In this document: positions 10,240 to 35,371 of the stretch, one piece after another
Layout: every line of letters begins with the position of its first letter
Numbering within the stretch: the first letter of the stretch is position 1
Assembly (NCBI GenBank): GCA_964590575.1
Contig: CAZPWM010000022.1
Location: forward strand, 911 to 39,838
Reading direction: 5' to 3'
DNA: 38,928 nt
Source: an uncultured archaeon
GTDB lineage: Archaea; Asgardarchaeota; Thorarchaeia; Thorarchaeales; Thorarchaeaceae
Made by a program: the position numbers and the translations under genes
Notes under the pieces: generated by a model
What the model saw: only the letters and a program-made list of their open reading frames with translations
Database searches by the model: none
Told to the model about the DNA's origin: nothing

Positions 10240-10346
10240 GGGTCGGTGGTCTAGATGGCAATGATACTGCATTGACATCTATTCTTGGTTTCCAAGAATA
10301 ATCAAATGTGCAGTGGTCGGGAGTTCAAGTCTCCCCCGACCCACCA
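10240..10346 (+). tRNA. tRNA-Val(GAC) with canonical 37/38 intron (10278-10307, 30 nt)
   Basis: GGGTCGG/CCGACCC acceptor, CTGCA/TGCAG anticodon stem, BHB with TTGA/TCAA helix and CAT/ATG bulges, GGGAG-TTCAAGT-CTCCC T arm, CCA. Confidence 0.95.
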
Positions 10347-13166: not shown

Positions 13167-13490
13167 CTTCAGGCACCCAAATCGAGAGTTCAATTATCGC
13201 AGGTTAGGAGGTGTATAGAAAGGACCTAAGTCTTCACTTGGACATACATGCATAATCATAGACGGTCTTACCAAATTTTGGATGATGAAAACATCTCCTG
13301 TCAGTAAATAAAGACTATATTGTGTTTATTACCGAAAAGGGAATCTCATATCGGATATTGAGCATTCCATATGGTCAAAAATGCAATTCGAGAATGGATT
13401 TTAGTATAGGTTCACCCTGCCGATGATTGTGAAGTAGAACTAGACAATTGTTGCTCTGACAGTTCTTCGCATTTGTGATATTCATTAAAA

Positions 13491-13516
13491 GAGTTCAAAT
13501 CACGTCCGGCCCACCA
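13491..13516 (+). pseudogene. Degenerate tRNA 3' fragment (positions 51-76), partner of the 10130 fragment
   Basis: GAG-TTCAAAT-CACGT-CCGGCCC-A-CCA followed by a pyrimidine tract. The acceptor strand pairs 7/7 with GGGCCGG at 10130. Confidence 0.75.
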
Positions 13517-20528: not shown

Positions 20529-21596
20529 ATGAACCACAAAAACCTGGCTTATTGGCTCATTGATAATGCAGGTCCAATCATTAGATTCAGGACTATTGTG
20601 GATATCTTTGAAGAGCAAGATGTTGGTGTTGTATCAAAGGCACTGAAGGATTTGACAGAAAGCCCTGAAGTTGTGAAGTGGTTTGGTTTTATTGAACATG
20701 GTCTTGCACTCAACGATGTACATTCTGGTCGGCAAAATGCCTTTGAGAATGTAATAGGTAAGCTGGTTCAACTTGGGTGGCGCGCTGGTTTGCAACCCTT
20801 TGACAACAAGACCTTGTTTTACAGAGTATGGTTGTCTGAGAATGTAGAGAAGGAACCTGTTGCAGCACACGATGTCTTCAAGAAATCTTTGATTGCTTCG
20901 GTTCTGGCACGCGCAGGATACCAGACTGTTGAGGCGGTTCAGAAGCAAATACTCTCACGGTTAAACACGATTCACAAGTTCGCGAAGGACCCAGATTTCT
21001 CGCAAATCTATGTTGACAAGTTAGAGTATCAAGGAATACCAAAGGGACTGGCAAGCCACGATCTAATCAACCCGCAGCTCTACCCAGGTCAGCAGTTTGC
21101 ACTCCCTTGGATTCATGATGTCTTTGCGTTCAGTCATCTCAATATAGTACACGAGAACGACCAGTATCATGACAAAGCGGAGCGGATTTTGGAGATGATT
21201 CTCACTCCTGAATACCAAAGCCTTCCGTGGAGTTATGGTATTGCCAGGTATGGAAAACGGTACTATGTGGTAGGCTGGGCTGCAAATCTCCCAGGTTATT
21301 CCAAGAATCCAGAGGGGAGGATGTTCGCGGGAATGCTTCTTGCACTAGATGCCTTAGCTCCCTTTGCTTGCATCAGGAAAAGTCATTGGTTCCAAAACTC
21401 GATGAGGTATCTAGATGAGTTTCGAACTGAAGCGGGTACATACTCATTCCCAAGGAGCTGGCTGCCTGAGAAGAAGAGGGGCTATTGGATTGGCGGTGAA
21501 TACATGGCTTTTGATAACCGAAAAGGGAGGAAGAATGCAATAGAGGTTGAATCAACCTTCCGGGTCCTTTCGATCAGAAGACGGGCTGGTTTGTGA
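20529..21596 (+). CDS. Hypothetical soluble protein (355 aa)
   Basis: Long ORF with no recognisable motif. Confidence 0.75.
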   Translation: MNHKNLAYWLIDNAGPIIRFRTIVDIFEEQDVGVVSKALKDLTESPEVVKWFGFIEHGLALNDVHSGRQNAFENVIGKLVQLGWRAGLQPFDNKTLFYRVWLSENVEKEPVAAHDVFKKSLIASVLARAGYQTVEAVQKQILSRLNTIHKFAKDPDFSQIYVDKLEYQGIPKGLASHDLINPQLYPGQQFALPWIHDVFAFSHLNIVHENDQYHDKAERILEMILTPEYQSLPWSYGIARYGKRYYVVGWAANLPGYSKNPEGRMFAGMLLALDALAPFACIRKSHWFQNSMRYLDEFRTEAGTYSFPRSWLPEKKRGYWIGGEYMAFDNRKGRKNAIEVESTFRVLSIRRRAGL

Positions 21597-22694
21597 GAGG
21601 TTGTTGTTGTTCGTGTTACTCTTGCCTGTAAAAATCAGAGAGAGAATCCTGTTTCTTAGGACAAGCGCTGCAAATGGAATTGACAATACAAACCCTAACA
21701 GAAATCGCAATGGCCAGAACAGAGTGATTGCGGCATCATAATCTGCTAAAGACCAACCCAGTGTAACCATCAATACTGGTACGAAATAGAAGAAGACAGG
21801 ATGGATCTCATAGATGACTTGAGAGTTCACTCCAAGAAATTCCACTCGTCTACTCTTGAAAAGACTTGACAACATGAAGACAAGTATTGTGCCAGAGGTA
21901 CCAGTTACTAGATAGAGCCAGGCATTTTCACCAAAACTATCTTCAACGAAATTAAAGAAGCCGTTGTACTGAGACGCAACGAATAGGATCACGGCAAGAA
22001 TCAGGAAAATAACGCCATCAAGTGTTTTCGACTTCGTACGCCACTCTTTCAACCCGTTGTATCTCTGCATCTCATGACCAATAATGCAGAATGAGGTGGC
22101 AATTAGAACACTATTGATGCGCCAAGGAACAAGCATTGGTGAAAACATGTCTGTTATCCAGAACGCGAGAACTGGCAGAAGAGCCACAAGTGGCCATCGT
22201 ACTCGTGGGTCGTATGAATGTGTCAGCGACTCGATCGCAACGAAGAGCATCAAGCCAAAGAAGAGGACTGGAAGGAACCATAGATGTGTGGCTTGCCCTG
22301 GAGGACCCGCCCCATAGAGAAACCAGAAGACGACATCAGCTGGTGTTAGATAGGTAGCAACTGAGTCAGCCAACGGGATAAAGAGAACCATCATTATGAT
22401 GTAGAGAGCAAAGTATGGTATCAATAACTGACGTCCACGAGAGATAGCATAATCTTTGAGATTGTTTCGATTCTTGTCACCGTTATACGTCATGCCAGCC
22501 ATGATGAAGAACAGAGCAATAGCAAACCCAGCCAAGAGCGCCACAGCGGCTTCTAGGTAGACATCATAATTCATTGGAATCATAGAATGGACCAAAATCA
22601 CAGTGAATATCCCGATTCCTCTTGCATTGTCGATCCAGCCAAGTCTGTTGTTAGTGACTGGTTCTGACAGTATAATACAGCTCCTTCTTAACAC
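21552..22694 (-). CDS. Acyltransferase family 3 membrane protein
   Basis: RLGWIDNARGIGIFTVILVH, LFFIMAG, LLIPY, LWFLPVLF. Start uncertain. Confidence 0.88.
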   Translation of the reverse strand: MLRRSCIILSEPVTNNRLGWIDNARGIGIFTVILVHSMIPMNYDVYLEAAVALLAGFAIALFFIMAGMTYNGDKNRNNLKDYAISRGRQLLIPYFALYIIMMVLFIPLADSVATYLTPADVVFWFLYGAGPPGQATHLWFLPVLFFGLMLFVAIESLTHSYDPRVRWPLVALLPVLAFWITDMFSPMLVPWRINSVLIATSFCIIGHEMQRYNGLKEWRTKSKTLDGVIFLILAVILFVASQYNGFFNFVEDSFGENAWLYLVTGTSGTILVFMLSSLFKSRRVEFLGVNSQVIYEIHPVFFYFVPVLMVTLGWSLADYDAAITLFWPLRFLLGFVLSIPFAALVLRNRILSLIFTGKSNTNNNNLSQTSPSSDRKDPEG

Positions 22695-22733
22695 GCATAA
22701 AAAAATGCGTTCTATTACCTACCCTTGGTAAGC

Positions 22734-22740
22734 TTTTTAA
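22734..22740 (+). promoter_or_regulatory. TATA-like box positioned for a tRNA start at 22766
   Basis: TTTTTAA ~26-32 nt upstream of GCGCTCGTTGTC. Confidence 0.5.
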
Positions 22741-22765
22741 CGCTCACCATTGCGATGGATTCGAA

Positions 22766-22777
22766 GCGCTCGTTGTC
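22766..22777 (+). pseudogene. 12-nt tRNA-Gly 5' stub (positions 1-12)
   Basis: GCGCTCGTTGTC is identical to the first 12 nt of the intact tRNA-Gly(GCC). It pairs with CGAGCGC of the 28310 fragment. Confidence 0.6.
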
Positions 22778-22793
22778 AGTGCTTCAAACACAT

Positions 22794-22898
22794 GCGTCCG
22801 TTGTCTATAGGACTTCAACTTCTGATGTCCTGACTAAGGGGCTATGATGGATCCCTGCCACTGTGCGGGGGCTCATCCCTCGGAACCGTAGAACGGAT
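22794..22898 (+). pseudogene. 5' portion (positions 1-42) of tRNA-Gly(GCC) with two BHB introns (22808-22837 at 14/15; 22861-22893 at 37/38)
   Basis: Removing the introns gives GCGTCCG-TT-GTCTAGGGGCTATGAT-G-GATCC-CTGCCAC-GGAT. The 37/38 intron has a CTGC/GTAG helix. No T arm follows. Confidence 0.85.
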
Positions 22899-25889
22899 TT
22901 CATACCCTTCATCTTTCAGACTGTTCCTCACTGATTCAATATCTTCGAGAGTTTGTTTTGACAACCACTCATCCATTATCTGCTCTTTTGTGCTATCATT
23001 TGGTTTCATTAAGAAAGCGCATTTCATCTTAGAATCATCATCACGAATCCTTGCTTGCCATCTTACACTAACCCTTCCTGATCGTCTGTAGTAAGAAACT
23101 TGCATGGGGTCGACTGAAACATTGATTCCGAACCCTCTGACTATTGTTGCCTCGTCATCAATCAGTTGATTTCTGTAATCATAGACGACCTTCAGAATCT
23201 CTTTTGCTGCGTTGGCTTTGAATTCATCTTGGTCATTTTGGAGATTTTCGAGTTGACCTATTGTCAAATATATCTCACCAGCATTCCCTGTTTCATACTC
23301 TCTGTTTGCTTCTTTTGAGGTCTTCAAGAACTCAACTGCTTCCTGCGATAACTTCGATTGAAAGTCGTATTTTTCGGATTTATTCCCTGCACATAGTGCA
23401 TGTCGCCGGTTCCAGCTAATTTCGCCATTTTCAGAAACACAACCTTCCTGCGAGAACATGTCTTGAATTAAAGCGCGTTGAGCGTCTTTAGACCAATTAT
23501 GAACATCAGATGGGAGTCCATAATTCAAGATGGTCCGGTCACCCTCGGGTATCCCCCAGAAAATGGCTGCTTCAGACATTGCTGAATTGATATAGATTTC
23601 ATATACACCTCTACTTTTCCTGAATTTCCTTTTCAGGTGTATATCTCCGAAATTACGTAAGGTGTTTTCAAAACGATTTATTCGATCCTCAGTTGATTCA
23701 TAATACATGAGACCTTTACTACCACGGACTTGACCATCACTGACAACTGTTCCTATAACACGTGCACGCAGTATTTCTAGCTCCTCACCTTTTGGAAAAT
23801 CAGGATTTTCAAGACCACCTTGACCTTTGATTCCGGTGATTTTCTCCACTCTTTTTTCAAGTAATTCTGTGTCATGTCCCATTGCATCTAATAGGAACTT
23901 GAGTGTTTCACCATGAATTCTATTTTCTTTCAAATGTCGAGATTTTCTGAGTGTTTCATTGTCGGTGTTCTGAAGTATTTCATCCATTATCTTGTTAAAA
24001 TGAATCTTGGATTCGGGTAATCTTGGATTCAATCCAAGATTGCTTAACGCACTTTCTTGAAGTCGCTCTAACATCTCATTCTCTTTGAAGTAGTAATACT
24101 GTTTAGACCATGCATTAAGCATGTTATTCCTGGATGTATCCGAAATCCAAAGATATACCCGATCATCCACAACACCAATTCTGACCTCAGTTTCTTCTAT
24201 CTTCAACCGCTTCTGGATTTCTTTACCCAACGTATCTTTACTTTTTTCTAGAGATTCTGATAGCCTGTGAGTGTCTTTCTGATCGTTTTCATCTAAATCA
24301 AGTTCTAGATACGACACGTGTTTCTCGCTTTCTGATATCCTAACTAGGAGTTCATCTACAAGCTCCTTAGTTTCCTGGATGCAACCACTCTCTTTCATAG
24401 TGACTTTGAAACGAGCATCGGATTGGTTTTCACTGTTCAGCATTGCTGTTTTCACAATTTGACTCCATGCTTTCTCTACAGCTTCAGCTGGATGTTCATC
24501 CTCGCTCTCTGCATTCTCCCGAACAATCTTCTTGAACTGCTCACGTTCTTCCTCTGAAAGTTCAGCAAAGAGGTTACGGAGCCTACGACGATGTTTCTGA
24601 TCCTCAGTTTCGTACTCAGCGAGTATATTCGGAACTCGCTGCATCTCACCAGTCAATGGATCTTGGACATAATCGTAGTTATCATCCATTCCCATTTTCA
24701 AATCTAACATGTCCTTAACGCGCTTAACAAAGGCCTCGAAGTCTTCAGGGAGGTCTTCTTCCTCGACGATTTCATTCTGCAAATCATTCTCGATCTCGCG
24801 TTCTTCGTTCTCTACCATCTCTGATGCTGCAGATTCCGCAACCTTCTGTTCTTCATCACTCACTTCTTGTGACTCTGTCCCATTCTGTGATTCCACATTA
24901 GAACCTTCAATTGGTACATCTACATGTTCTAACTCATCCAATTTAGGTTCATCATGCACTTCCGTCGCATTATGTGACTCTTCTATCTCAAGGGTATCCT
25001 CTAAATCAGATTTCACCTCACTCTCTTCCGGTTCTTCTGCGGGGTACAGACTATCATCAGCTATATACTCTCTTGTTTCCTCATGTTCAAATTCAGACTG
25101 ATTCTCTTGGGGAGTTTCACCCTTGGAAACCTCGGGTTCAGTTACTCCAGACGGTTCGCTGGATTCGGGTTGTTTAATTCCTTGTTTCTCCACAGATTCT
25201 GTAGTTCCAGAGGACGAGTATTCCTCCTGTTCTGTTTCTGCAGATTCAGGTCGAGTGATTCGGTTTCTAAATTCTTCATCAGGTTGCTCCTTAACATCAT
25301 CCATTGGTTTACTGCGTTCACTGTGTTCCTGCTTCTCATACTCAACCTCACTCTCGACCTCAGAATTTTTATCATACTCAGATTCATTCTTGGTTTCCAT
25401 TGTATAGACCATACCGGATCCTGCTTCTTCGTATGACTCACTGGACTCAGTCATCTCAGAGGACGAGCCCTCCTCACCTCCCTCCTCTATGTCAATATCT
25501 TTTCGCGAGACCCCTTCAATCTGATGGTTCATGTCATTGACATATTCATCATGGAGTTCCACTCTGACCTCGTCAAGGTCATTCTCCAACTCATCCTCGA
25601 AGGACTCCTTGCCGTCCATATCTTTCTCCCGTTGAAGTTCATCAAACTCCTTTGCAGCTGCCTCAGCAAGGTCTTCGATCTCCTTGAGCATTGTTTCATA
25701 CTCATCGAACTCCTTCGCTGCCTCATTGGCGATTTGCTCGATTGCCTTCTGTCGTTCAATGTCTTCAGCGGTCTCCGCCGTCGTTTTCTCGACTTCATCA
25801 GGAATCTCCCCTCCTTCTGGAGTGTCTGGCTGTTCATCATACTCTGTTTCTGAATATCGCTCTGCATCAGAGGTTCTATCATACGGCAA
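22842..25889 (-). CDS. Large acidic protein with a C-terminal LAGLIDADG-like endonuclease region (paralog of 10347-13166)
   Basis: Shared N-terminal and central blocks with the paralog, and two LAGLIDADG-like helices (RVIGTVVSDGQV, ALIQDMFSQEGCV). TTG 25889 preferred (ORF track 25946). The last ~18 codons read antisense through the tRNA relic. Confidence 0.78.
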   Translation of the reverse strand: MPYDRTSDAERYSETEYDEQPDTPEGGEIPDEVEKTTAETAEDIERQKAIEQIANEAAKEFDEYETMLKEIEDLAEAAAKEFDELQREKDMDGKESFEDELENDLDEVRVELHDEYVNDMNHQIEGVSRKDIDIEEGGEEGSSSEMTESSESYEEAGSGMVYTMETKNESEYDKNSEVESEVEYEKQEHSERSKPMDDVKEQPDEEFRNRITRPESAETEQEEYSSSGTTESVEKQGIKQPESSEPSGVTEPEVSKGETPQENQSEFEHEETREYIADDSLYPAEEPEESEVKSDLEDTLEIEESHNATEVHDEPKLDELEHVDVPIEGSNVESQNGTESQEVSDEEQKVAESAASEMVENEEREIENDLQNEIVEEEDLPEDFEAFVKRVKDMLDLKMGMDDNYDYVQDPLTGEMQRVPNILAEYETEDQKHRRRLRNLFAELSEEEREQFKKIVRENAESEDEHPAEAVEKAWSQIVKTAMLNSENQSDARFKVTMKESGCIQETKELVDELLVRISESEKHVSYLELDLDENDQKDTHRLSESLEKSKDTLGKEIQKRLKIEETEVRIGVVDDRVYLWISDTSRNNMLNAWSKQYYYFKENEMLERLQESALSNLGLNPRLPESKIHFNKIMDEILQNTDNETLRKSRHLKENRIHGETLKFLLDAMGHDTELLEKRVEKITGIKGQGGLENPDFPKGEELEILRARVIGTVVSDGQVRGSKGLMYYESTEDRINRFENTLRNFGDIHLKRKFRKSRGVYEIYINSAMSEAAIFWGIPEGDRTILNYGLPSDVHNWSKDAQRALIQDMFSQEGCVSENGEISWNRRHALCAGNKSEKYDFQSKLSQEAVEFLKTSKEANREYETGNAGEIYLTIGQLENLQNDQDEFKANAAKEILKVVYDYRNQLIDDEATIVRGFGINVSVDPMQVSYYRRSGRVSVRWQARIRDDDSKMKCAFLMKPNDSTKEQIMDEWLSKQTLEDIESVRNSLKDEGYEIRSTVPRDEPPHSGRDPS
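25528..25730 (+). repeat. 203-bp near-identical block, copy 2
   Basis: See 12805-13007. Confidence 0.9.
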
Positions 25890-26209
25890 TTTCAGACCCC
25901 GATTCATAGATTTCTGAATAGACCATTTTCTCACTTCAAGATTCAATATAGAAGATTAATCAGTTTTCAGTGGAGTATAATTAAGGGTGATTAGAAGTCG
26001 GTTTCAGCCTTATTGTGTGTTAGAGTCCTTCCGCTTGTTAGATAATGGTTCTTAGAATTTTTTTAACGATTTCTGGCATCCATTTCTCTTTTTGTCATAC
26101 TATTTTGGTCAAAAGTGCAATTCATTTTTCGAAACCTAAGCACATCTGAAGAGTTTAATGATTCAATGCAATTCGTGAGAATTATGCATGATATTAAACA
26201 ATGGAGAGA

Positions 26210-26345
26210 TGGTGCGCTCGCCGGGACTCGAATTCCCGACCACGTTCGAAACTGAACGCAGTTCCCGGCTCCCGACCACATCCGAAACGGATGCGATTGC
26301 CGGATCCGTGGCAGGGATCCATCATAGCCCCTAGACAACGAGCGC
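26210..26345 (-). tRNA. tRNA-Gly(GCC) with two non-canonical introns (26269-26298 at 48/49; 26233-26263 at 53/54)
   Basis: GCGCTCG/CGAGCGC acceptor, GATCC-CTGCCAC-GGATC, CCGGG-TTCGAGT-CCCGG after splicing, CCA. Both introns form hairpins with 4-bp central helices. TTTAAA lies upstream on the minus strand. Confidence 0.92.
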
Positions 26346-26606: not shown

Positions 26607-26639
26607 CTAACCCGGGTTCGAATCCCGGCGGATGCACCA
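26607..26639 (+). repeat. tRNA-Gly 3' fragment 1 (positions 43-76)
   Basis: C-TAAC-CCGGG-TTCGAAT-CCCGG-CGGATGC-A-CCA plus a T-rich tract. Confidence 0.9.
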
Positions 26640-26716
26640 CTCTTTTCTATGTATTGACTAGTACAAAAGTCAGTTGATGGCAAAGCATTTCTCTTCTCAC
26701 TGCTATGTCTTAAAGC

Positions 26717-27208
26717 ATGGGAGTTTTTCAGAAGCAGTATAGTAATGTAAGTCTGCTTCTAGCCATCTATACAATGTTCTCTCCAAGCATGATAGAGAGT
26801 GAAACTTGGGGTAGTGGGGAGCATATGGTTCTTGATGCAGTTACAGTGCGTACAATGACGTCAAGCAGCTTTTGGGCCTTTGAATCGATTAATTACTACA
26901 CACTAGGTGGACCTCCAAATTCCAGCCAATTTCTATTTCCCTACTCCGCCTCAATGCCTGTAAACATTGCGTGGCTCATAGGATGTCTATCAATGGTTAT
27001 TGCCCTACTCGTTCTGAATGGAAAGATTTCTCGCAACTTGGGATTCCTTATACTGATAATAGCTACACTACTTCCATTCTTTTTGCCCGGCATAAACAGT
27101 TATTCTGTGGAGTCGTTTTACACTTATAGCAGAATGGCGCTACCGATTCCTCAGATTATCGGAATCATTATTCTTGTGTTCACTCGAAAATGGAATCTCA
27201 TCAAATGA
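26717..27208 (+). CDS. Hypothetical membrane protein (cassette 1)
   Basis: 163 aa with several TMs, the sole ORF between tRNA fragments 1 and 2. Confidence 0.7.
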   Translation: MGVFQKQYSNVSLLLAIYTMFSPSMIESETWGSGEHMVLDAVTVRTMTSSSFWAFESINYYTLGGPPNSSQFLFPYSASMPVNIAWLIGCLSMVIALLVLNGKISRNLGFLILIIATLLPFFLPGINSYSVESFYTYSRMALPIPQIIGIIILVFTRKWNLIK

Positions 27209-27226
27209 TTTCAGACCTAGATGAAC

Positions 27227-27255
27227 CCCGGGTTCGAATCCCGGCGGACGCACCA
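27227..27255 (+). repeat. tRNA-Gly 3' fragment 2 (positions 48-76)
   Basis: C-CCGGG-TTCGAAT-CCCGG-CGGACGC-A-CCA. Confidence 0.9.
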
Positions 27256-27271
27256 TTCTCATTCTTCTCAC

Positions 27272-28210
27272 TCAAACCTCCACACACTCAATCATTTTTC
27301 CCCATTGGTTCATCGTCACGTTTCGAATGAAGCCTGCAGATTCAAGCATCTGATTCAGAGGGTCTGACACATCAATCTCAACCGCACATATCAGGTTCGG
27401 TTGATGCATCATCACGCGCCTTAAACCCTCTGAGAGGAGAGCTTCTTCTAGTCCAAGGTTTCTGAAATCAGGATGAGTCCCAAGTGCTTCCATTTCTGCG
27501 ATACCTGTCAGCGGATCCAATCGATACATGCAGAATCCGACGAACCTATCGGAATCATCAACCATGGCTAGATTAAGGTCTTGATGATAGAACTCTGCTT
27601 GTGTCATAAATCTCATTTTTTCTAAAGTCATATGCTGACGACAGTGATCGTAGACTGATCCAATCACTTCGATAAAATTGACATAGTCCTGTTCGTTTCT
27701 TAGACCTCTTATTGTGTATCCCTCTGGTAACGGGTTGTCAGGTATCGAAGCGTCCTGAGGGAATCCATAATTGTATTCGTGAAGACCATAATCTTCATAG
27801 CCCATTTCTGTTAGGACTTGGGCTCTCCTAGAATCAGGTCCTACTGTGTACATATACATTCGAGACCTTCCTTCACCAACAATGGTTCTCTCAAGCTTCT
27901 CAATCTCTTGAAACAAATCTTTCTCCATGAGTTTATAGTCTGGGTGAACCTCTATGTGGTAATTTGCTGCTGAGCCTCGATGAGACACAGCAATAATATC
28001 AGAATCGTCTTTGTTTGATACTCTCCAAATTTTAAATGCCTCATCATCCTTAAGAGAATAATTCGGACCGCACGGACCAAATTTCTGGTTCTCAACCTTT
28101 GTAGGAATCAGGTAATGGAGTGTGCCAGTTTGTTTGTAGATCTCTAGCAGAAACAAACGGACCTGATCCAAGTTTCTATCAAAACTGAATGGTCTTCGGA
28201 CTATCTTCAC
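27272..28210 (-). CDS. GNAT family acetyltransferase, tandem domains (cassette 2)
   Basis: EVHPDY and LGTHPDFRNLGL motif-A-like segments, ESAGF. GTG 28210 after GAGGT preferred. Confidence 0.8.
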   Translation of the reverse strand: MKIVRRPFSFDRNLDQVRLFLLEIYKQTGTLHYLIPTKVENQKFGPCGPNYSLKDDEAFKIWRVSNKDDSDIIAVSHRGSAANYHIEVHPDYKLMEKDLFQEIEKLERTIVGEGRSRMYMYTVGPDSRRAQVLTEMGYEDYGLHEYNYGFPQDASIPDNPLPEGYTIRGLRNEQDYVNFIEVIGSVYDHCRQHMTLEKMRFMTQAEFYHQDLNLAMVDDSDRFVGFCMYRLDPLTGIAEMEALGTHPDFRNLGLEEALLSEGLRRVMMHQPNLICAVEIDVSDPLNQMLESAGFIRNVTMNQWGKMIECVEV

Positions 28211-28309
28211 ATCTCTACCTCTTGAATTGACCTCTGTGTAGCTGATAAATAACACTGGAATTACGCAATATTATGATAGTACCCTAACAACGAGGTTGGG
28301 AAAAATAGA

Positions 28310-28337
28310 CCGGGTTCGAATCCCGGCGAGCGCACCA
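28310..28337 (+). repeat. tRNA-Gly 3' fragment 3 (positions 49-76)
   Basis: CCGGG-TTCGAAT-CCCGG-CGAGCGC-A-CCA. Confidence 0.9.
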
Positions 28338-28472
28338 CCTTCTGTTTCGCAATGATAGCGAAAATCTCAGTAGCCAGACTTCCAGTGCAAGATTGAAAAG
28401 GAAGGTGAGACCTAGTACTCTTTTGGCGAGTTGAGTTAGATGCAAAAGGGCACTCAAGAGTCATGTTTTAAG

Positions 28473-29558
28473 ATGCACCCAATATTGGTTGCACTTTCAG
28501 GGATACCAATGAAACTCACCTATGCGATGATATTCGTTGGCGTAATGACATATGCTGGATTCGTTCTGCTTACTCTGTTTACAGGACAGGTGGCGCAAGT
28601 CCTATTCTCTTTCATGCATCTGGTTCAATTGGACTTCTCGCTGCTTATTACAGTCGGACTCTTTTTCTTGCGTAGTTACTATACAATGCTTGACAAAACC
28701 CTCAGAGAGATTCGTTATGTGTTCGTGATTGATGACGATGAGTATGAGAGGTATCTTGAAAATTTGAACAAGAAGATGAGCGACACGCGAGGTTTTCTCT
28801 TAGGCCTTCCTTTTGTTATTCTTGCAGTGGTCTCAATTCTTCTCTTTGTAATGCCCAATATGCCCAATCCTCTGTTCCCTGTTGACCCGCTGTCACCCGT
28901 TTGGCTCTACATCTCTATGATTGAATTTAGTCTTATTATGCTTCCACTATTTGGAGTAGCAATCTGGCTTGGTGTTGTAGTAATGTCCGTTTCCAAAGAC
29001 ATTGGACGAAGACTGAAAATTTCCGTAGAACCAATCTCACCTGACCGGGCTGGAGGGCTCGTTTCTTTCTCCGAGGTGCTCTTGAGAGGTGTTTTCATGT
29101 ATTCCCTATTGCTCGTTCTTTTAATTCCCCTACTCGCCTATCTTGTTCACAATCTTAGTTTCATTAGTCCACTACTATCTCTAATCCCAACGACGGGGTT
29201 GACCTTAGCAATTGTGACCATTTGTATATTCTTTCTAGTGCCTCAGTATTACGTTCATAAGATTTTAGAAGAGGAGAAGAAAAAACACTTGTCTCAAGTC
29301 AGCAGAGAAGTCAATGCAGTGCTCTCTAACATGCGGAGTATACTCACTGCCTCTCCTCAGAAGTCTGATATTCCATCTCAACAACTTACGCTGGTAAGCC
29401 TTCAACTCACCACTTTCTTTGAACAGGTAGAAAAAATGAAGACATGGCCATCGACCCTTTGGATAGCCGCTAAGGCAATCAGCTCTCTGCTTATCATATT
29501 GCTCACGTTCTTTGTCAATCAATTCTTGTTCCAATACTTGGAGGCGGTCTTTGGTTAA
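28473..29558 (+). CDS. Multi-pass membrane protein (cassette 3)
   Basis: About 7 TMs, with PDRAGGL, FFLVPQYYVH and TWP motifs. Confidence 0.78.
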   Translation: MHPILVALSGIPMKLTYAMIFVGVMTYAGFVLLTLFTGQVAQVLFSFMHLVQLDFSLLITVGLFFLRSYYTMLDKTLREIRYVFVIDDDEYERYLENLNKKMSDTRGFLLGLPFVILAVVSILLFVMPNMPNPLFPVDPLSPVWLYISMIEFSLIMLPLFGVAIWLGVVVMSVSKDIGRRLKISVEPISPDRAGGLVSFSEVLLRGVFMYSLLLVLLIPLLAYLVHNLSFISPLLSLIPTTGLTLAIVTICIFFLVPQYYVHKILEEEKKKHLSQVSREVNAVLSNMRSILTASPQKSDIPSQQLTLVSLQLTTFFEQVEKMKTWPSTLWIAAKAISSLLIILLTFFVNQFLFQYLEAVFG

Positions 29559-29633
29559 CCATTCAATCTATTCGACCTTCAGCATTCTAATGGAGAGCAT
29601 CAGAGAGCAGTTGTTCGGACACTCTCAGCTAGA

Positions 29634-29657
29634 GTTCGAATCCCGGCGAGCACACTA
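29634..29657 (+). repeat. tRNA-Gly 3' fragment 4 (positions 53-76, degenerate)
   Basis: G-TTCGAAT-CCCGG-CGAGCAC-A-CTA plus a T tract, with two substitutions relative to fragment 3. Confidence 0.82.
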
Positions 29658-29663
29658 TTTCTT

Positions 29664-30605
29664 CTATCTTGGTTTACCATAGACTCGGATAGCGTTCTCC
29701 CAGTATAGTTTTTGAAGGACTGAGAGGGGTAGGTCAAGTCCGTTAATGAAGGTCCCACCTGAGTCTTTGGTGTCGGCATCCTCGAATGGCAAAGGTTCTC
29801 CTCGGACATCGATCTCCCATAGATATCTCTGAGCTAGGTATCTTGGACCAAAGTACTCCATGTTTCCACGGTTTGCTGACAGATCTGTGCCAAAGAGAAT
29901 TCTATTAGAGTACTTTACCAAAAATTCTCGCGCCCTCTTCACATCTTTACTAAGTTCTCGAGCCATCCATCGTGAAGATGCTGTATCTAGAATGACATTT
30001 GGAAATCGGTCCAACCAACCAGCAAGATTAGGAAGTCTATGTATCTCAGGCTGTGCTCCAAAATGTGGAATTTGAATTTTCACCCTAGGATGCCGCTCCA
30101 TCACAGCCTCCAGCTGGCTCAGATTATCCTCCTTTGTACCGTACTTGGATTCATCCTGATAGTGCAGATGAAAGTATGTGTCCGGGTCTGCTACATGAAT
30201 AATGATTGGAAGATTGTTATCTTCCAGTGCCTGAAATACAGGGTCGAGTTTGGGACTGTCAATCCTGAAGCCAGCAGGAACATCCTCAATATAGTCCCGC
30301 CATCGAGGACCAAACCAACACTTCGCAAGTGAATATCCCTCATCTTTTGTTCGAGAGATGTCATCGATGACTGGTTCAACATTATAGTGGGCGATATCTC
30401 TGAGCGACAGATACTTAGCAAATACAAACCTCTCAGGATATTTCTCTCTAGCATATTGGAATCCTTCCTTCGAGTGGACTATCCCAATCTGCGCAGTCAC
30501 ACCAAACTCATCTTCAATCTGGAGCATCTTGTCGAGCGTGTCAGGTTCTCCAATATGCGTGTGTGCATCAAAGAAAGGACCTTGATACTTCCAGTTGTCT
30601 GTCAA
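29664..30605 (-). CDS. Amidohydrolase family 2 protein
   Basis: FDAHTH, IIIHVAD, IPHFG, LDTAS, RILFGTD, WENA. Confidence 0.88.
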   Translation of the reverse strand: MTDNWKYQGPFFDAHTHIGEPDTLDKMLQIEDEFGVTAQIGIVHSKEGFQYAREKYPERFVFAKYLSLRDIAHYNVEPVIDDISRTKDEGYSLAKCWFGPRWRDYIEDVPAGFRIDSPKLDPVFQALEDNNLPIIIHVADPDTYFHLHYQDESKYGTKEDNLSQLEAVMERHPRVKIQIPHFGAQPEIHRLPNLAGWLDRFPNVILDTASSRWMARELSKDVKRAREFLVKYSNRILFGTDLSANRGNMEYFGPRYLAQRYLWEIDVRGEPLPFEDADTKDSGGTFINGLDLPLSVLQKLYWENAIRVYGKPR

Positions 30606-33108: not shown

Positions 33109-35121
33109 TTATGTGTCTATCCAACCCTCGAACTTCCTCTGAAGTGTCGGGGTGTATACTTTTCTCCAATCATAGTCAACTCGGTCACACCACTTGTAGA
33201 CGATTTTTGGGTGAATATACGACTTGAGTGAGGTGCCCAGATTCCAGGTGCGACAGTCCTTTGCAAGAGCAAAATCAACCTCAATCTTTCTCTTAGCGAG
33301 CTCTGCCTTCTTCACGCGCTCCTTCGCGGTCTCAACAGCTCTCTCTCCTACGACTAATCGTTTTGCTGATTGTTCCTTCCACTCATTGAATGTTTCCTGT
33401 TGTTTTTCCAAGGAAATCTTGCTCTTTTGGTGTCGTTCTCGAGCACTCATGAGACCAGCTTCAGCTTTGTCCAAACGTTCTCGAGTACGATCAATTCGCT
33501 CCTGAGCATCGTCCAATCGTTGTTTCTTGGTAGACTTTCCTTTTCGACTACTTGTTCTGGTACGACTCTTTTGGGACCGCGCATTATCCCAAGTCACTTT
33601 AGCTTTGCCACGTTTCTCCCGCCATAACCGGACTGATGCCATATTGTTCTCAACAGACGTCTTCTGCTTCGTGATTCGTTCTTGTTTTCCTTTTCTTGCC
33701 TCATCTTCTTTTTTCTTGATCTTGCGAAATCGTGCCTGTGCCTCTTTGAGCTGAGTTGTGGCTTTCACAATCCTGACTTCGGATTTCTTGATGCGTTCTT
33801 TGTATCTCTCAGCACTACGATTCCATCCCGGTGGAGCTTGTTTGGTATGGTTCATCACACGTGCAACTTCGAGATTAGCGCGTCTGAAAGCCTCCTTCTT
33901 GACAAATTCAGGGTCCACTTTCCGTGCCTTGCTAGTCTTGAGCTCTTCACGCATGGTCACAGATGCATGATAAGTCCTGAACACCTTGGCAGAGAGCTCG
34001 GGGTAGACCTCACTAAGGAATCGGTTTACATGAGTACTTCTGATAGTTGGGAAAATCTGAGCGATCTTTTTTGGATCCCCTCGAGTCTTCTTACTCTTCC
34101 TGCTTTCGAAGGAGGCAACTCGCTCTGTTGCGTTGTCGTATAGTTCCTTCAACACATCATATACTTCCGAGGGCATCTCAAGTTCCTTATGCCACTGAAC
34201 GCTATCCTTACCAAGAAAATCAAAGACCACAGATGAGTCATGGAATGTCAGATGCTCAACCCTGAGAGTTGTGGCTCCAACTGTATCAGCTTCCTCGGGG
34301 TCTTTCTCATCACCCACTCGTAGACTGAGGTTGTCAATCAGATAGCATGCAGCTGCGACCATTCTTCTCTGAAGCTCATCTGACCGTAGACCGTCCATGA
34401 TGTGTTCACGGATTTCTTCGATTCTTCGTTCCACTTTCAGTGCCTTATCGAACTTTGCTGCTTCACGTTCTTGTTTTATCGGAGTGCTATCATGCAGCCA
34501 AATGTACTTCACTTTACTAGTCAGTTCATCTGTCCACTTTGCAATCCACATGGTGTCAGGAGCCCAGACAAGTTCTCCCCATTCACCCTCTAAGTTTGAT
34601 ACACCCTCTGGGCTTATGTTTAGCGTGATGTCCTTCTTTGTAGCACCCTGCTTCCAGCGCCCTCTCAGGGGATGTTCACCACGTCCCATGAAGATACCCG
34701 ATGGTTCAGTCTGGTAGTTTCCAAGCTCCATTCTCTCACCATCAACAAGTGCATGACCATAGTGCTCTTTCAGTTGCTCTCGAATCGTTTTTCGTTCTTC
34801 ACTTTCAACCTTCTTTTGTTCTGAGGTCATGCTTTCCTTTACTTCACGCTCTTCCTGAACTACACGAATCACTTCACTGAAATCGACCTCATCCACTTCC
34901 AAATCCAGACTTATTCCAAGAGCTTTACTGAAATCAGTCATGAAGTTCTTTGCAAAGACCGGATCATCAACGTAGGAAGTGCCTAGTTTTTTGACCCATG
35001 CAACAGCCATCTCTTCTTGAAGCTGTGAAAGTGTTATCTCTTCCTCTCGTGCTTTGATGGAAAGTCCACGAGGTGGAGGTGGGTCGATAACAAGAATGCC
35101 GTTGTGTATCAATGATTCCAT
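33109..35121 (-). CDS. DNA topoisomerase IB, eukaryote-like, with a very long linker
   Basis: EPSGIFMGRGEHPLRG, LRVGDEKD, DTVGATTLR, FLGKDS, AKVFRTY, NH, and LGTSLKSYI (catalytic Tyr). ATG 35121 preferred. Confidence 0.93.
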   Translation of the reverse strand: MESLIHNGILVIDPPPPRGLSIKAREEEITLSQLQEEMAVAWVKKLGTSYVDDPVFAKNFMTDFSKALGISLDLEVDEVDFSEVIRVVQEEREVKESMTSEQKKVESEERKTIREQLKEHYGHALVDGERMELGNYQTEPSGIFMGRGEHPLRGRWKQGATKKDITLNISPEGVSNLEGEWGELVWAPDTMWIAKWTDELTSKVKYIWLHDSTPIKQEREAAKFDKALKVERRIEEIREHIMDGLRSDELQRRMVAAACYLIDNLSLRVGDEKDPEEADTVGATTLRVEHLTFHDSSVVFDFLGKDSVQWHKELEMPSEVYDVLKELYDNATERVASFESRKSKKTRGDPKKIAQIFPTIRSTHVNRFLSEVYPELSAKVFRTYHASVTMREELKTSKARKVDPEFVKKEAFRRANLEVARVMNHTKQAPPGWNRSAERYKERIKKSEVRIVKATTQLKEAQARFRKIKKKEDEARKGKQERITKQKTSVENNMASVRLWREKRGKAKVTWDNARSQKSRTRTSSRKGKSTKKQRLDDAQERIDRTRERLDKAEAGLMSARERHQKSKISLEKQQETFNEWKEQSAKRLVVGERAVETAKERVKKAELAKRKIEVDFALAKDCRTWNLGTSLKSYIHPKIVYKWCDRVDYDWRKVYTPTLQRKFEGWIDT

Positions 35122-35294
35122 GTAGAAGCCTCGTCTTCTGTCGTCAGCAACCAGTGTTAACAAAAGTATTGCGCTATCGACTCCTACCAAAAGCGTGAAT
35201 CAGACACAGCACTGAATATCTCAGAGTGAACCCCGAAGATGAAGAGGCACTTCAACTTCAAGCATGTGTTTCTCTATTCTAGTGGAAAAAGAAA

Positions 35295-35371
35295 TGGTGC
35301 GGCCACCGGGATTCGAACCCGGGTTACGAGCTTGGAAGGCTCGGATCATAACCAGGCTAGACTATGGCCGC
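35295..35371 (-). tRNA. tRNA-Gly(TCC), intronless
   Basis: GCGGCCA/TGGCCGC, CGAGC-CTTCCAA-GCTCG, CCGGG-TTCGAAT-CCCGG, CCA. Confidence 0.96.

What the first reader, a model, noticed from the sequence alone, without database searches (positions are those of the whole stretch)
26607..29657. Integron-like array of single-gene cassettes delimited by four tRNA-Gly 3' ends
Seen: four co-oriented T-arm/acceptor/CCA fragments (26607, 27227, 28310, 29634), each followed by a pyrimidine tract. Each interval contains exactly one ORF (membrane protein +, GNAT -, membrane protein +). The fragments shorten with distance from the tRNA (33, 29, 28, 24 nt), and the last has lost its CCA (CTA). The intervals of 0.6-1.3 kb are too small to be self-mobile. 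Inference: genes were captured one at a time at the tRNA-proximal end, leaving a chronological record much like integron attC arrays.
Basis: partly seen in the sequence, partly recalled or inferred. Interest (0 to 1): 0.85.

Follow-up and report, generated by a model that had tools for sequence, protein, structure and literature searches.

The report
tRNA-end repeats bounding single-gene cassettes
In this Thorarchaeota genome, copies of the last ~28 bases of a glycine tRNA gene separate three single genes at a spot whose gene content differs between related species, and similar arrays sit beside other tRNA genes, suggesting a gene-capture site whose enzyme is still unknown.

Summary
The four co-oriented tRNA-Gly 3'-end copies are real and far beyond chance. 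Each of the three intervals holds one ORF. They derive from tRNA-Gly(GCC), not from the tRNA-Gly(TCC) that ARAGORN calls.

No intact co-oriented tRNA heads the array. One copy is truncated at position 42, beside a gene with a LAGLIDADG homing-endonuclease fold. The working copy, with two T-arm introns, lies inverted 260 nt upstream.

In 18 relatives the slot between tRNA-Gly(GCC) and a conserved amidohydrolase holds 0 to 5 or more small genes. Content and order differ, and the genes are partly separated by the same repeats. Cassette homology starts exactly at a repeat. One metagenome contig lacks two cassettes, with its junction inside the repeats.

No integrase was found in any cassette or in the MAG. 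Similar arrays follow tRNA-Thr, Leu and Glu genes here. The Leu repeat clusters in other genomes of the family.

Best reading: serial insertion of non-autonomous one-gene modules into tRNA 3' ends, plus loss between repeats, by an unidentified trans-acting enzyme. It resembles an integron but fails integron membership. I rate it a new variant of tRNA-targeted integration.

The parts
21552..22694 (-). Acyltransferase-3 gene, the conserved left flank of the variable slot
   Evidence: Pfam PF01757, E 3.9e-26. It is syntenic next to tRNA-Gly(GCC) in G002, G005, G012, G016, G020 and G022.
22766..22777 (+). 12-nt relic of a tRNA-Gly(GCC) 5' end of acceptor type A (GCGCTCGTTGTC)
   Evidence: Read. 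The same relic sits upstream of the intact copy in G015:C10.
22794..22898 (+). Truncated tRNA-Gly(GCC) copy 1. It has a type B 5' acceptor (GCGTCCG), a roughly 30-nt D-loop insert and a canonical 37/38 intron, and it ends at tRNA position 42 (CGGAT).
   Evidence: 81% identical to the intact gene of G015 over 175 nt. Metagenome contigs with intact genes join 22898 to a 3' fragment through CCGG(C).
22842..25946 (-). 1034-aa ORF: an acidic low-complexity N-terminal half and a C-terminal 474 aa with a double-motif LAGLIDADG homing-endonuclease fold. Its 3' end runs into the truncated tRNA copy.
   Evidence: No Pfam or PDB sequence hit. AF2 model pLDDT 85.8, pTM 0.83. The Foldseek PDB top hits are all LAGLIDADG proteins, E 5e-7 to 1e-3. 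D177 and G275, in the SDG and (E/D)G motifs, are invariant.
26210..26345 (-). Complete tRNA-Gly(GCC) copy 2 (type A acceptor GCGCTCG/CGAGCGC). It has no 37/38 intron but two similar inserts of about 30 nt, at about 48/49 and 53/54 in the T arm. It is inverted relative to the array.
   Evidence: Removing two segments of about 30 nt gives sequences that ARAGORN calls tRNA-Gly(gcc), for 233 of 1232 trial cuts. The same form occurs in G003 and G013, with a compensatory acceptor GCGCCTG/CAGGCGC in G013.
26611..26639 (+). Fragment f1: T arm, CGGATGC, ACCA, then a pyrimidine tract
26717..27208 (+). Cassette gene 1: 163-aa hydrophobic protein with no family hit
   Evidence: Homologues stand directly after the tRNA or a fragment in G005, G007, G012 and G020, and homology starts at ACCA plus the tract.
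27227..27255 (+). Fragment f2: T arm, CGGACGC, ACCA
27272..28255 (-). Cassette gene 2: 327-aa protein with a weak GNAT acetyltransferase domain
   Evidence: PF00583, E 4.6e-5. A homologue follows a fragment in G011. A 72%-identical copy in G006:C5 has no fragment nearby.
28310..28337 (+). Fragment f3: T arm, CGAGCGC, ACCA
   Evidence: It is 27 of 28 identical to the fragment upstream of the same cassette in G010, while the sequence further upstream is unrelated.
28440..29558 (+). Cassette gene 3: 372-aa multi-hydrophobic protein with no family hit
   Evidence: Homologues occur in G005 and G010 in different contexts.
29632..29657 (+). Fragment f4, decayed: AGTTCGAATCCCGG, CGAGCAC, ACTA
   Evidence: It is absent from G005 at the same junction.
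29664..30605 (-). Amidohydrolase gene, the conserved right flank of the variable slot
   Evidence: PF04909, E 2.2e-19. It is found in the same position in relatives.

Best explanation
The four repeats are copies of the 3' end of the tRNA-Gly(GCC) gene, covering the T arm, the 3' acceptor strand and CCA, each with a short terminator-like pyrimidine tract. They border three one-gene DNA modules that were inserted, at different times, into the 3' part of that tRNA gene. This site is an insertion hot spot used throughout the genus.

Each module has the form: tRNA 3'-end copy, pyrimidine tract, one gene. Insertion restores a working tRNA end and pushes the former end downstream, so repeats pile up in one orientation. 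The repeats also allow modules to be lost or reshuffled by recombination between them.

The modules encode no recombinase, so they must be moved in trans. My committed guess is site-specific recombination within the tRNA 3'-end core, by an enzyme encoded elsewhere and not recovered in this MAG.

In this genome the head of the array was later wrecked. The old tRNA copy lost its 3' part next to a LAGLIDADG endonuclease gene, and a second, intron-split tRNA-Gly(GCC) copy in inverted orientation does the work.

Shown: the repeats, their tRNA origin, the modularity, the variation between relatives, and the absence of recognisable integrases. Inferred: the order of events, mobility in trans and the kind of enzyme.
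For: - **Repeats are real and tRNA-derived**.
- **Ancestral layout.** In relatives the same repeat is the 3' exon of an intact, co-oriented tRNA-Gly(GCC) at the head of the slot.
- **Variable slot.** The slot between the tRNA and the amidohydrolase differs among 18 relatives (20 loci). It is empty in G002 and holds two genes in G016 and G022, in opposite order. It holds five genes with three repeats in G005. G015 has arrays on two contigs.
- **Order conflicts.** c29 versus ORF1, c22 versus c43, and c29 versus c44 rule out pure deletion from one ancestral array.
- **Module borders.** Homology of cassette 1 in 5 genomes starts at ACCA plus the tract. Homology of cassette 3 in 3 genomes starts at the repeat and ends about 30 nt after the stop codon, with unrelated DNA outside. 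A Leu-array cassette is conserved from one 22-mer to the next in 3 genomes, again with unrelated DNA outside.
- **Strain-level difference.** A 705-nt contig of run X6, about 90% identical, joins 27246 to 29660. It lacks GNAT and ORF3, and its junction lies inside the repeats.
- **No recombinase family** in any of the 50 proteins scanned with Pfam, about 35 of them from these variable regions and arrays. PF00589 and PF16795 gave 0 hits in the MAG.
- **Generality.** Orphan 3' ends follow tRNA-Thr(TGT), Leu(GAG) (four orphans plus the gene end, all 22 of 22 identical), Leu(CAG), Leu(TAG) and Glu(TTC) in this genome. The Leu 22-mer occurs in 72 of 81 family genomes, with 0 hits for the reversed control. 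It forms same-strand clusters on about 20 contigs from three genera.
- **Repeats stay tRNA-like.** In five other genomes, 10 of 11 orphan repeats carry the T-loop variant of the resident tRNA.
Against: - No excised circle, empty-site/filled-site pair at strain level with raw reads, or recombinase has been seen. Only Logan contigs could be laid, and these drop rare forms.
- Cassette divergence between species (66-83% nt) is like that of the flanking core gene (70-84%). Most cassettes therefore look old and vertically inherited rather than recently moved.
- A GNAT homologue sits outside any array in G006.
- In the window itself the four repeats have T loop TTCGAAT while the working tRNA copy has TTCGAGT (0 of 4 match).
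- About half of the relatives' contigs end inside or beside the slot, so larger elements could be hidden by assembly breaks.
- The MAG is 91% complete, and mobile elements are often left out of bins.
Confidence: 0.55

Rival explanations
1. The intervals are eroded remains of ordinary, larger tRNA-integrating elements (proviruses or plasmids with SSV- or pNOB8-type integrases). Each has been cut down by deletion to one gene. The repeats are neutral att scars.
For: - tRNA 3' ends are the classical archaeal att sites, and tyrosine-recombinase elements form arrays by re-using a site. I read passages of PMC6563490, the discussion of PMC3293823 and passages of PMC9897764.
- PF00589 hits exist in 9 of 28 genus genomes. 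One (G018:C202) lies about 480 nt from a tRNA-like 3' end.
- Many contigs break at the slot.
Against: - None of the 8 loci that span the whole slot, nor any cassette scanned, holds an integrase or a fragment of one.
- Intervals are tight: 16-100 nt of non-coding DNA around one intact ORF. The same holds in the Leu array, with spacings of 627, 475, 510 and 422 nt. Random erosion should not give this.
- Repeats at orthologous cassette borders are 27 of 28 and 22 of 22 identical between species whose cassettes are about 80-87% identical. The DNA just outside is unalignable, so they are not neutral scars.
- The smallest integrated element in the Thaumarchaeota survey was 2.6 kb and had an integrase.
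Confidence: 0.15
2. Cassettes are copied into tRNA 3' ends by double-strand-break repair rather than by an integrase. Members of the multicopy LAGLIDADG endonuclease family cut the tRNA 3'-end core. Repair from a cassette-bearing template, with annealing at the 22-30-nt repeat, then copies one or more modules. The T-arm introns of the working tRNA copy would make it immune.
For: - The 1034-aa ORF next to the array has a LAGLIDADG fold with both acidic motif residues conserved.
- Homologues occur in 46 of 81 family genomes, with up to 8 matches per genome, some with in-frame stops. This is typical of selfish genes.
- In G015 a homologue together with a whole tRNA-Gly(GCC) copy is inserted in the D arm of another copy.
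- In G001:C18 and G005:C69 homologues end about 12-21 nt from the 3' end of other tRNA genes.
- The repeat length of 22-29 nt is the size of a LAGLIDADG target (recalled, not from a call).
- No integrase was found.
- Breakpoints coincide with tRNA intron positions: 53/54 in Leu(GAG), and about 48/49 and the D loop in Gly(GCC).
- Passages of PMC8813620 propose a homing-endonuclease-like gene co-opted for site-specific integration in Heimdallarchaeum.
Against: - Only 3 of 19 other loci of the family have a tRNA 3' end within 1.5 kb.
- The target of the enzyme is unknown, and activity is inferred from the fold alone. WhiA, a non-cutting relative, is also among the hits.
- Copy numbers of the family and of the repeats show no obvious link across genomes. 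For example G014 has 0 homologues but 5 Leu repeats, and G001 has 6 and 2. I ran no formal test.
- Most arrays have no such gene nearby.
Confidence: 0.17
3. The repeats are working RNA parts: 3' halves of a split tRNA-Gly joined in trans to the 5' remnant, or tRNA-like processing or termination signals for the cassette mRNAs.
For: - A 5' part ending at position 42 and 3' parts starting near position 48 both exist on the + strand.
- The repeats are better conserved than neutral DNA.
- Split and tri-split tRNA-Gly genes are known in other archaea (recalled, not from a call).
Against: - There is no leader/trailer complementarity between the 60 nt after the 5' remnant and the 60 nt before each repeat. 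Duplex z scores were -0.30, -1.84, +0.95 and -1.79 against 300 shuffles each.
- A complete tRNA-Gly(GCC) exists nearby.
- The four acceptor strands differ, so they cannot all pair with one 5' strand.
- The Leu repeat lacks the 5' T-stem strand and cannot form a hairpin.
- Cassette genes lie on either strand, so the repeats are not consistent 3' signals.
- The terminator-like scan found 2 sites against 3.0 expected.
Confidence: 0.03

Closest known systems
Serial integration of archaeal mobile elements into tRNA genes by SSV-type or pNOB8-type tyrosine integrases, leaving att direct repeats
   Same: The repeat is the 3' part of a tRNA gene. The gene is restored at one end. Repeats are co-oriented, and re-use of the site builds arrays. 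I read passages of PMC6563490 and PMC9897764 and the discussion of PMC3293823.
   Different: The units here are 0.4-1.3 kb with one gene and no integrase, whole or partitioned. No tyrosine recombinase was detected in the MAG. The repeats stay nearly exact between species. The elements described in those papers are 2.6-23 kb and carry an integrase.
Integron cassette arrays (IntI, attI, attC)
   Same: One-gene modules are bounded by a short recombination-site-like repeat. Content and order vary between relatives. The genes are accessory-type: membrane proteins and small enzymes. The modules have no mobility gene of their own.
   Different: There is no intI next to the array. The repeats are tRNA ends, not attC hairpins. 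Cassettes lie on either strand and carry their own upstream regions. The anchor is an essential tRNA gene.
Model of tRNA gene disruption in Caldiarchaeum (Sugahara et al. 2012, PMC3293823; abstract and discussion read)
   Same: A 5' fragment of a tRNA gene lies upstream of an insertion. Behind the insertion stands a complete copy of the same tRNA with a different intron set. Introns are thought to come in with, or protect against, inserting elements.
   Different: There the 1.8-kb insert encodes a putative DNA recombinase and there is one event. Here the neighbour is a LAGLIDADG-fold gene, the working copy is inverted, and a four-repeat cassette array follows.
Integrase-less elements flanked by att sites (cis-mobilizable elements) and tandem accretion in Streptococcus; tandem ssrA islands in Dehalococcoides
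   Same: Non-autonomous units are bounded by att repeats and arranged in tandem at one site, presumably moved in trans. I saw only search listings and abstract openings of PMC5704250, PMC7563491 and PMC3146451. The concept itself is partly recalled.
   Different: Those are bacterial, usually several kb, and demonstrably derived from integrase-bearing elements found at the same site. No parent element was found here.
LAGLIDADG homing endonucleases of archaeal introns and inteins (I-DmoI, I-Tsp061I, PI-SceI)
   Same: The C-terminal 474 aa of the neighbouring ORF share the fold (TM normalised to target 0.54-0.64 for I-Tsp061I and I-DmoI) and both acidic motif positions.
   Different: The gene is free-standing and 1034 aa long with an acidic N-terminal half. 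It lies next to or inside tRNA genes rather than within an intron or intein. It has no sequence-level family hit.

Membership tests
Integron | intI tyrosine recombinase gene beside the array | tested here: not met
   No recombinase family in the flanking or cassette ORFs. PF00589 gave 0 hits in the whole MAG.
Integron | attC sites: imperfect inverted repeats folding into hairpins at each cassette end | tested here: not met
   The repeats are tRNA 3' ends. The Gly repeat holds only the T-arm hairpin. The Leu 22-mer holds no hairpin at all.
Integron | Mostly promoterless cassettes in one orientation behind a common promoter | tested here: not met
   GNAT is on the opposite strand. Two of four Leu-array ORFs are on the opposite strand. 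Cassettes carry conserved upstream regions.
Integron | Single-ORF modules bounded by the repeat, differing in content and order between relatives | tested here: met
tRNA-targeting integrative element (tyrosine integrase) | Direct repeat identical to the 3' part of a tRNA gene, with the intact gene at one end in the same orientation | tested here: inconclusive
   Met in relatives G005, G012, G015 and G020. In the window the co-oriented copy is truncated and the intact copy is inverted.
tRNA-targeting integrative element (tyrosine integrase) | Integrase gene inside the element, intact or split by the att site | tested here: not met
   50 proteins were scanned with Pfam, about 35 of them from these variable regions and arrays, and none was a recombinase. 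No long ORF reads through the repeats.
Cis-mobilizable (integrase-less) element | Bounded by att sites and lacking a recombinase | tested here: met
Cis-mobilizable (integrase-less) element | Excised and integrated by the integrase of a related autonomous element | not testable with these tools
   No autonomous relative was found. Only assembled contigs of public runs could be laid.
Split tRNA gene | Complementary trailer and leader that bring the halves together in a bulge-helix-bulge | tested here: not met
   Duplex energies were within shuffles, z from -1.84 to +0.95.
LAGLIDADG homing endonuclease (for ORF 22842-25946) | Two-fold alpha-beta-beta-alpha-beta-beta-alpha core with two LAGLIDADG helices | tested here: met
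   AF2 pLDDT 85.8. The Foldseek PDB hits with E <= 0.001 are LAGLIDADG proteins.
LAGLIDADG homing endonuclease (for ORF 22842-25946) | Acidic residue at the end of each motif helix | tested here: met
   D177 is invariant. E or D precedes the invariant G275 in 10 of 10 aligned sequences.
LAGLIDADG homing endonuclease (for ORF 22842-25946) | Cuts a defined long target site and promotes its own copying | not testable with these tools
   No target is known. Support is indirect only: multicopy, patchy distribution.

The most novel reading that the evidence does not exclude
tRNA genes of Thorarchaeia act as integron-like gene-capture platforms. One-gene cassettes bounded by exact copies of a tRNA 3'-end core are inserted, lost and reshuffled at several tRNA genes without any tyrosine recombinase. 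They would be moved in trans, possibly by a diversified family of free-standing LAGLIDADG endonucleases that target tRNA 3' ends. tRNA introns in the T arm and D loop would be by-products of, or shields against, this traffic.
Probability: 0.3. Interest if true: 0.9.

Novelty: new variant of a known kind. Interest (0 to 1): 0.72.

Why it matters
Asgard archaea have large, flexible genomes, and how they take up genes bears on models of eukaryote origins. If one-gene cassettes are routinely captured at tRNA 3' ends without a resident integrase, this would be a compact route of gene flow not yet described in archaea. It would parallel bacterial integrons in function.

It would also give direct material for two old questions. 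One is why archaeal tRNA genes are so often interrupted by introns at odd positions. The other is whether such interruptions arise from, or protect against, insertion of foreign DNA.

The arrays may in addition preserve successive states of a tRNA acceptor stem: CGAGCGC, CGAACGC, CGGACGC. That would be a rare fossil series of compensatory evolution.

Tried and rejected
- **Split tRNA.** Rejected for lack of leader/trailer pairing.
- **Viral or plasmid attP.** Two scans of viral contigs with degenerate forms of the repeat gave 0 hits, then 1 hit. The one hit is a complete tRNA-Gly in a phage tRNA cluster and is unrelated.
- **Integrases of the genus as movers.** I inspected 12 loci around PF00589 hits. 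None lies beside a tRNA-Gly repeat. One lies near another tRNA-like end.
- **Other recombinases.** The archaeal XerA model gave one weak match (16.6 bits against a cut-off of 220). One serine resolvase sits on a small contig. Neither is linked to the arrays.
- **Defence function of cassettes.** 0 PADLOC hits for 9 proteins. NCBIfam gave only weak acetyltransferase hits for the GNAT.
- **Terminator-like scan.** 2 sites against 3.0 expected, so uninformative.
- **Reads.** Only Logan contigs were on offer. Most joints are intact tRNA genes of other strains with short sides. Parts without cover are not evidence.
- **History of the array head.** I could not reconstruct the exact order of events that inverted tRNA copy 2 and truncated copy 1.
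- **Link between endonuclease and repeat copy numbers.** This was eyeballed, not tested.
- **Leu arrays of 17 further loci (L073-L089).** A planned clustering of their genes was lost with the script machine. I used instead.
- **Closed resources.** Supplementary files of papers were closed. The supplements of PMC8813620 and PMC11529989 may list integrated elements that bear on novelty.
- **Not found in print.** Searches listed no paper describing integrase-less one-gene arrays bounded by tRNA 3' ends in Asgard archaea. I read passages of four papers only.

Full report
**What is in the window.**
The four repeats are real. The core GGTTCGAATCCCGGC occurs exactly at 26615, 27231 and 28313, and with one mismatch at 29633, all on the + strand. 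In total there are 7 matches at up to 3 mismatches. The mean in 100 shuffles was 0.56, and no shuffle reached 7. The repeat finder groups them as one family of four 33-nt copies with 100, 94, 82 and 67% identity to the first.

Each repeat runs from the T stem through the 3' acceptor strand to CCA (CTA in the last) and is followed by a pyrimidine-rich tract. The acceptor strands differ: CGGATGC, CGGACGC, CGAGCGC, CGAGCAC. The three intervals hold one ORF each:
- 163 aa, hydrophobic, + strand
- 327 aa with a weak GNAT domain, - strand
- 372 aa, multi-hydrophobic, + strand

Only 16-100 nt of spacer surround each ORF.

**Where the tRNA is.**
ARAGORN finds a single tRNA in the window, tRNA-Gly(TCC) at 35295-35371 on the minus strand. 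Rfam adds two intron-bearing tRNAs far away and nothing at the repeats.

Reading the minus strand shows a complete tRNA-Gly(GCC) at 26345-26210. Its acceptor is GCGCTCG/CGAGCGC. It has no 37/38 intron but two similar inserts of about 30 nt in the T-arm region. Cutting out two such segments gives sequences that ARAGORN calls tRNA-Gly(gcc), for 233 of 1232 trial cuts. The same gene form exists in G003 and G013. G013 has the compensatory acceptor pair GCGCCTG/CAGGCGC, which argues that this form is functional.

On the + strand, at 22794-22898, lies the 5' part of a second tRNA-Gly(GCC) copy. It has acceptor GCGTCCG, a D-loop insert and a canonical intron, and it stops at position 42. It is preceded by a 12-nt relic of the other acceptor type. 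So the array has no intact head in this genome.

**Comparison with relatives.**
Record titles of two related contigs name Candidatus Thorarchaeota MAGs. A DNA search of 41 genomes found parts of the region in 32. I fetched 20 loci from 18 genus genomes and mapped repeats and ORF clusters.

The flanks are syntenic: acyltransferase, then tRNA-Gly(GCC) (+), then a variable slot, then amidohydrolase (-), FMN reductase, DUF362, topoisomerase IB and tRNA-Gly(TCC). In relatives the repeat is the 3' exon of an intact co-oriented tRNA-Gly(GCC) with a canonical intron.

The slot contents differ:

| Genome | Slot content, from the tRNA towards the amidohydrolase |
|---|---|
| G002 | empty |
| G016 | c22, c43 |
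| G022 | c43, c22 |
| G012 | ORF1, c29, repeat |
| G020 | ORF1, repeat, c43 |
| G005 | c29, repeat, a 228-aa gene, repeat, a 480-aa gene, repeat, ORF1, ORF3 |
| G011 | repeat, GNAT, c55 |
| G010 | c43, a NosD-like gene, repeat, ORF3, an epimerase-like gene |
| G015 | arrays on two contigs |

Three order conflicts exclude pure deletion from one ancestral array. Eight loci, including the window, span the whole slot. None holds an integrase.

**Modularity.**
Cassette 1 aligns in five genomes from the ACCA and pyrimidine tract onward. In G005 it is preceded by a repeat, with three further cassettes upstream.

Cassette 3 aligns in G000, G005 and G010 from the repeat to about 30 nt past the stop codon. 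Beyond that, the three genomes are unrelated. The repeat itself is 27 of 28 identical between G000 and G010. G005 lacks the last repeat and about 73 nt at the amidohydrolase junction.

In run X6, a 705-nt contig about 90% identical to the window joins 27246 to 29660. That is cassette 1, one repeat, then the amidohydrolase, without GNAT and ORF3. The other joints are intact tRNA genes of other strains. Only contigs could be laid.

**Other arrays.**
A scan of the MAG for T arm plus CCA found 37 sites. These include two orphan tRNA-Thr(TGT) ends 1.2 and 4.3 kb downstream of that gene on C6. The intervals there hold a DUF3800 gene, then an octopine-dehydrogenase-like gene plus a B12-binding gene, before TFIIB.

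A wider scan and inspection found more:
- On C19, a tRNA-Leu(GAG) with a 30-nt intron at 53/54 is followed by four orphan copies of its last 22 nt, all 22 of 22 identical. Spacings are 627, 475, 510 and 422 nt, with one small ORF per interval on either strand.
- A truncated 5' copy (positions 1-53) lies 135 nt upstream of that gene.
- Single orphans follow Leu(CAG), Leu(TAG) and Glu(TTC).

The Leu 22-mer occurs in 72 of 81 family genomes, with no hit for the reversed control. It forms same-strand clusters on about 20 contigs in three genera.

The 162-aa Leu-array cassette has homologues in 16 of 27 other genus genomes. Several lie between or just behind Leu 22-mers. In G000, G011 and G024 the alignment runs from 22-mer to 22-mer at 87% mean identity, with unrelated DNA outside.

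The Gly repeat, at up to 1 mismatch, is present in 27 of 28 genus genomes. About 10 of these have two or more GCC-type copies.

**The repeats are not neutral scars.**
Repeats at orthologous borders are almost exact between species whose cassettes differ by 13-20%. In five other genomes, 10 of 11 orphan Gly repeats carry the T-loop variant of the resident gene. The window is the exception (0 of 4 against copy 2). These genomes are kin, so this is not a statistical test.

Some repeats do decay: f4 here, one copy in G007 and one in G005. The acceptor type changes in order along arrays, from B-like near the tRNA to A-like far from it here, and through CGAACGC in G015. This fits the idea that each repeat was once the live end of the gene.

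**The missing enzyme.**
PF00589 and PF16795 give no hit in the MAG, which is 91% complete. The XerA model gives one match far below its cut-off, and one resolvase sits on a small contig. In the genus, 9 of 28 genomes have PF00589 hits, mostly on short contigs and none beside a Gly repeat. Viral contig scans found no attP.

**The neighbouring large ORF.**
ORF 22842-25946 has no family or PDB sequence hit. With 9 homologues aligned, its last 474 aa fold with pLDDT 85.8. They match LAGLIDADG endonucleases throughout the top of the Foldseek list: the TliVMA intein endonuclease, I-Tsp061I, PI-SceI, I-DmoI and also WhiA. Both acidic motif positions are conserved.

The family is multicopy and patchy. 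It occurs in 46 of 81 genomes, with up to 8 matches per genome, some with in-frame stops. In G015 a homologue plus an intact tRNA-Gly(GCC) copy is inserted after position 12 of another copy, whose remainder has a mutated anticodon. In G001:C18 and G005:C69 homologues end about 12-21 nt from other tRNA 3' ends. That is 2 of 19 other loci, with a third tRNA about 1 kb away. This makes an endonuclease-driven route conceivable, but it is not shown.

**Comparison with the literature.**
The nearest published picture is tRNA-targeted integration by tyrosine-integrase elements and their arrays, together with the Caldiarchaeum model of tRNA gene disruption. I read passages of PMC6563490 and PMC9897764 and the abstract and discussion of PMC3293823. 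Passages of PMC8813620 mention a homing-endonuclease-like gene possibly co-opted for integration in Heimdallarchaeum.

The differences here are the one-gene size, the lack of any integrase, the near-exact repeats across species and the number of tRNA genes affected. My four literature searches listed no description of such arrays.

**Verdict.**
The integron analogy is apt as a description of behaviour but fails as membership. The mechanism remains open between a trans-acting site-specific recombinase (my choice), endonuclease-driven repair, and decay of larger elements.

Noticed in passing
window 26210-26345 (-); also G003:C7 and G013:C40 (L012, L019): This tRNA-Gly(GCC) has two similar inserts of about 30 nt in the T-arm region, at about 48/49 and 53/54, and no canonical intron. 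Relatives add a D-loop insert. G013 shows a compensatory acceptor change. The two inserts look like duplicated introns.
   Followed up: partly
G000 contig C19, about 22487-25079 (L090): tRNA-Leu(GAG) has a 53/54 intron and is followed by four orphan copies of its last 22 nt, all exact. Each interval holds one small ORF. A truncated 5' copy (positions 1-53) with a different intron lies 135 nt upstream. Breakpoints coincide with the intron position.
   Followed up: partly
G000 contig C6, 25816-30295 (L043 5817-10295): tRNA-Thr(TGT) is followed by two orphan 3' ends. The cassettes are a DUF3800 gene, then an octopine-dehydrogenase-like gene plus a B12-binding mutase-like gene, and then TFIIB.
   Followed up: partly
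window about 13489-13516 (+): An orphan T-arm/acceptor/CCA-like 28-mer (3 mismatches to the tRNA-Pro end of contig C8) lies between a 948-aa multi-HTH ORF (10347-13193, -) and a 496-aa ORF. tRNA-Val(GAC) stands at 10240-10343.
   Followed up: no
window 22842-25946 (-) and 46 of 81 family genomes: This is a multicopy, patchy family of large proteins with a LAGLIDADG-fold C-terminal domain and variable acidic N-terminal parts. A second copy in this MAG lies at C10:26696-27967.
   Followed up: partly
window 33109-35190 (-): A eukaryote-type DNA topoisomerase IB (three Pfam domains, best E 3.6e-61) is syntenic next to tRNA-Gly(TCC) across the genus.
   Followed up: no
L018 14210-15924 and L021 (G012, G015): Two tRNA-Gly(TCC) gene variants flank a Ycf48/BNR-repeat surface protein gene (c32). 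The same gene family sits next to Gly(GCC)-type repeats in G006 and G014.
   Followed up: no
L011 4913-8440 (G002:C20): In G002 the insertion lies on the 5' side of tRNA-Gly(GCC). About 4 kb holds a FUR-like HTH gene, a CAAX-protease-like gene and a 540-aa gene, while the 3' slot is empty.
   Followed up: no
window 23134-23186 (-) and 12176-12230 (-): Weak Rfam matches to C/D-box sRNA sR14 (E 0.0054 and 0.1, below the gathering score) lie inside long ORFs. They are probably chance.
   Followed up: no
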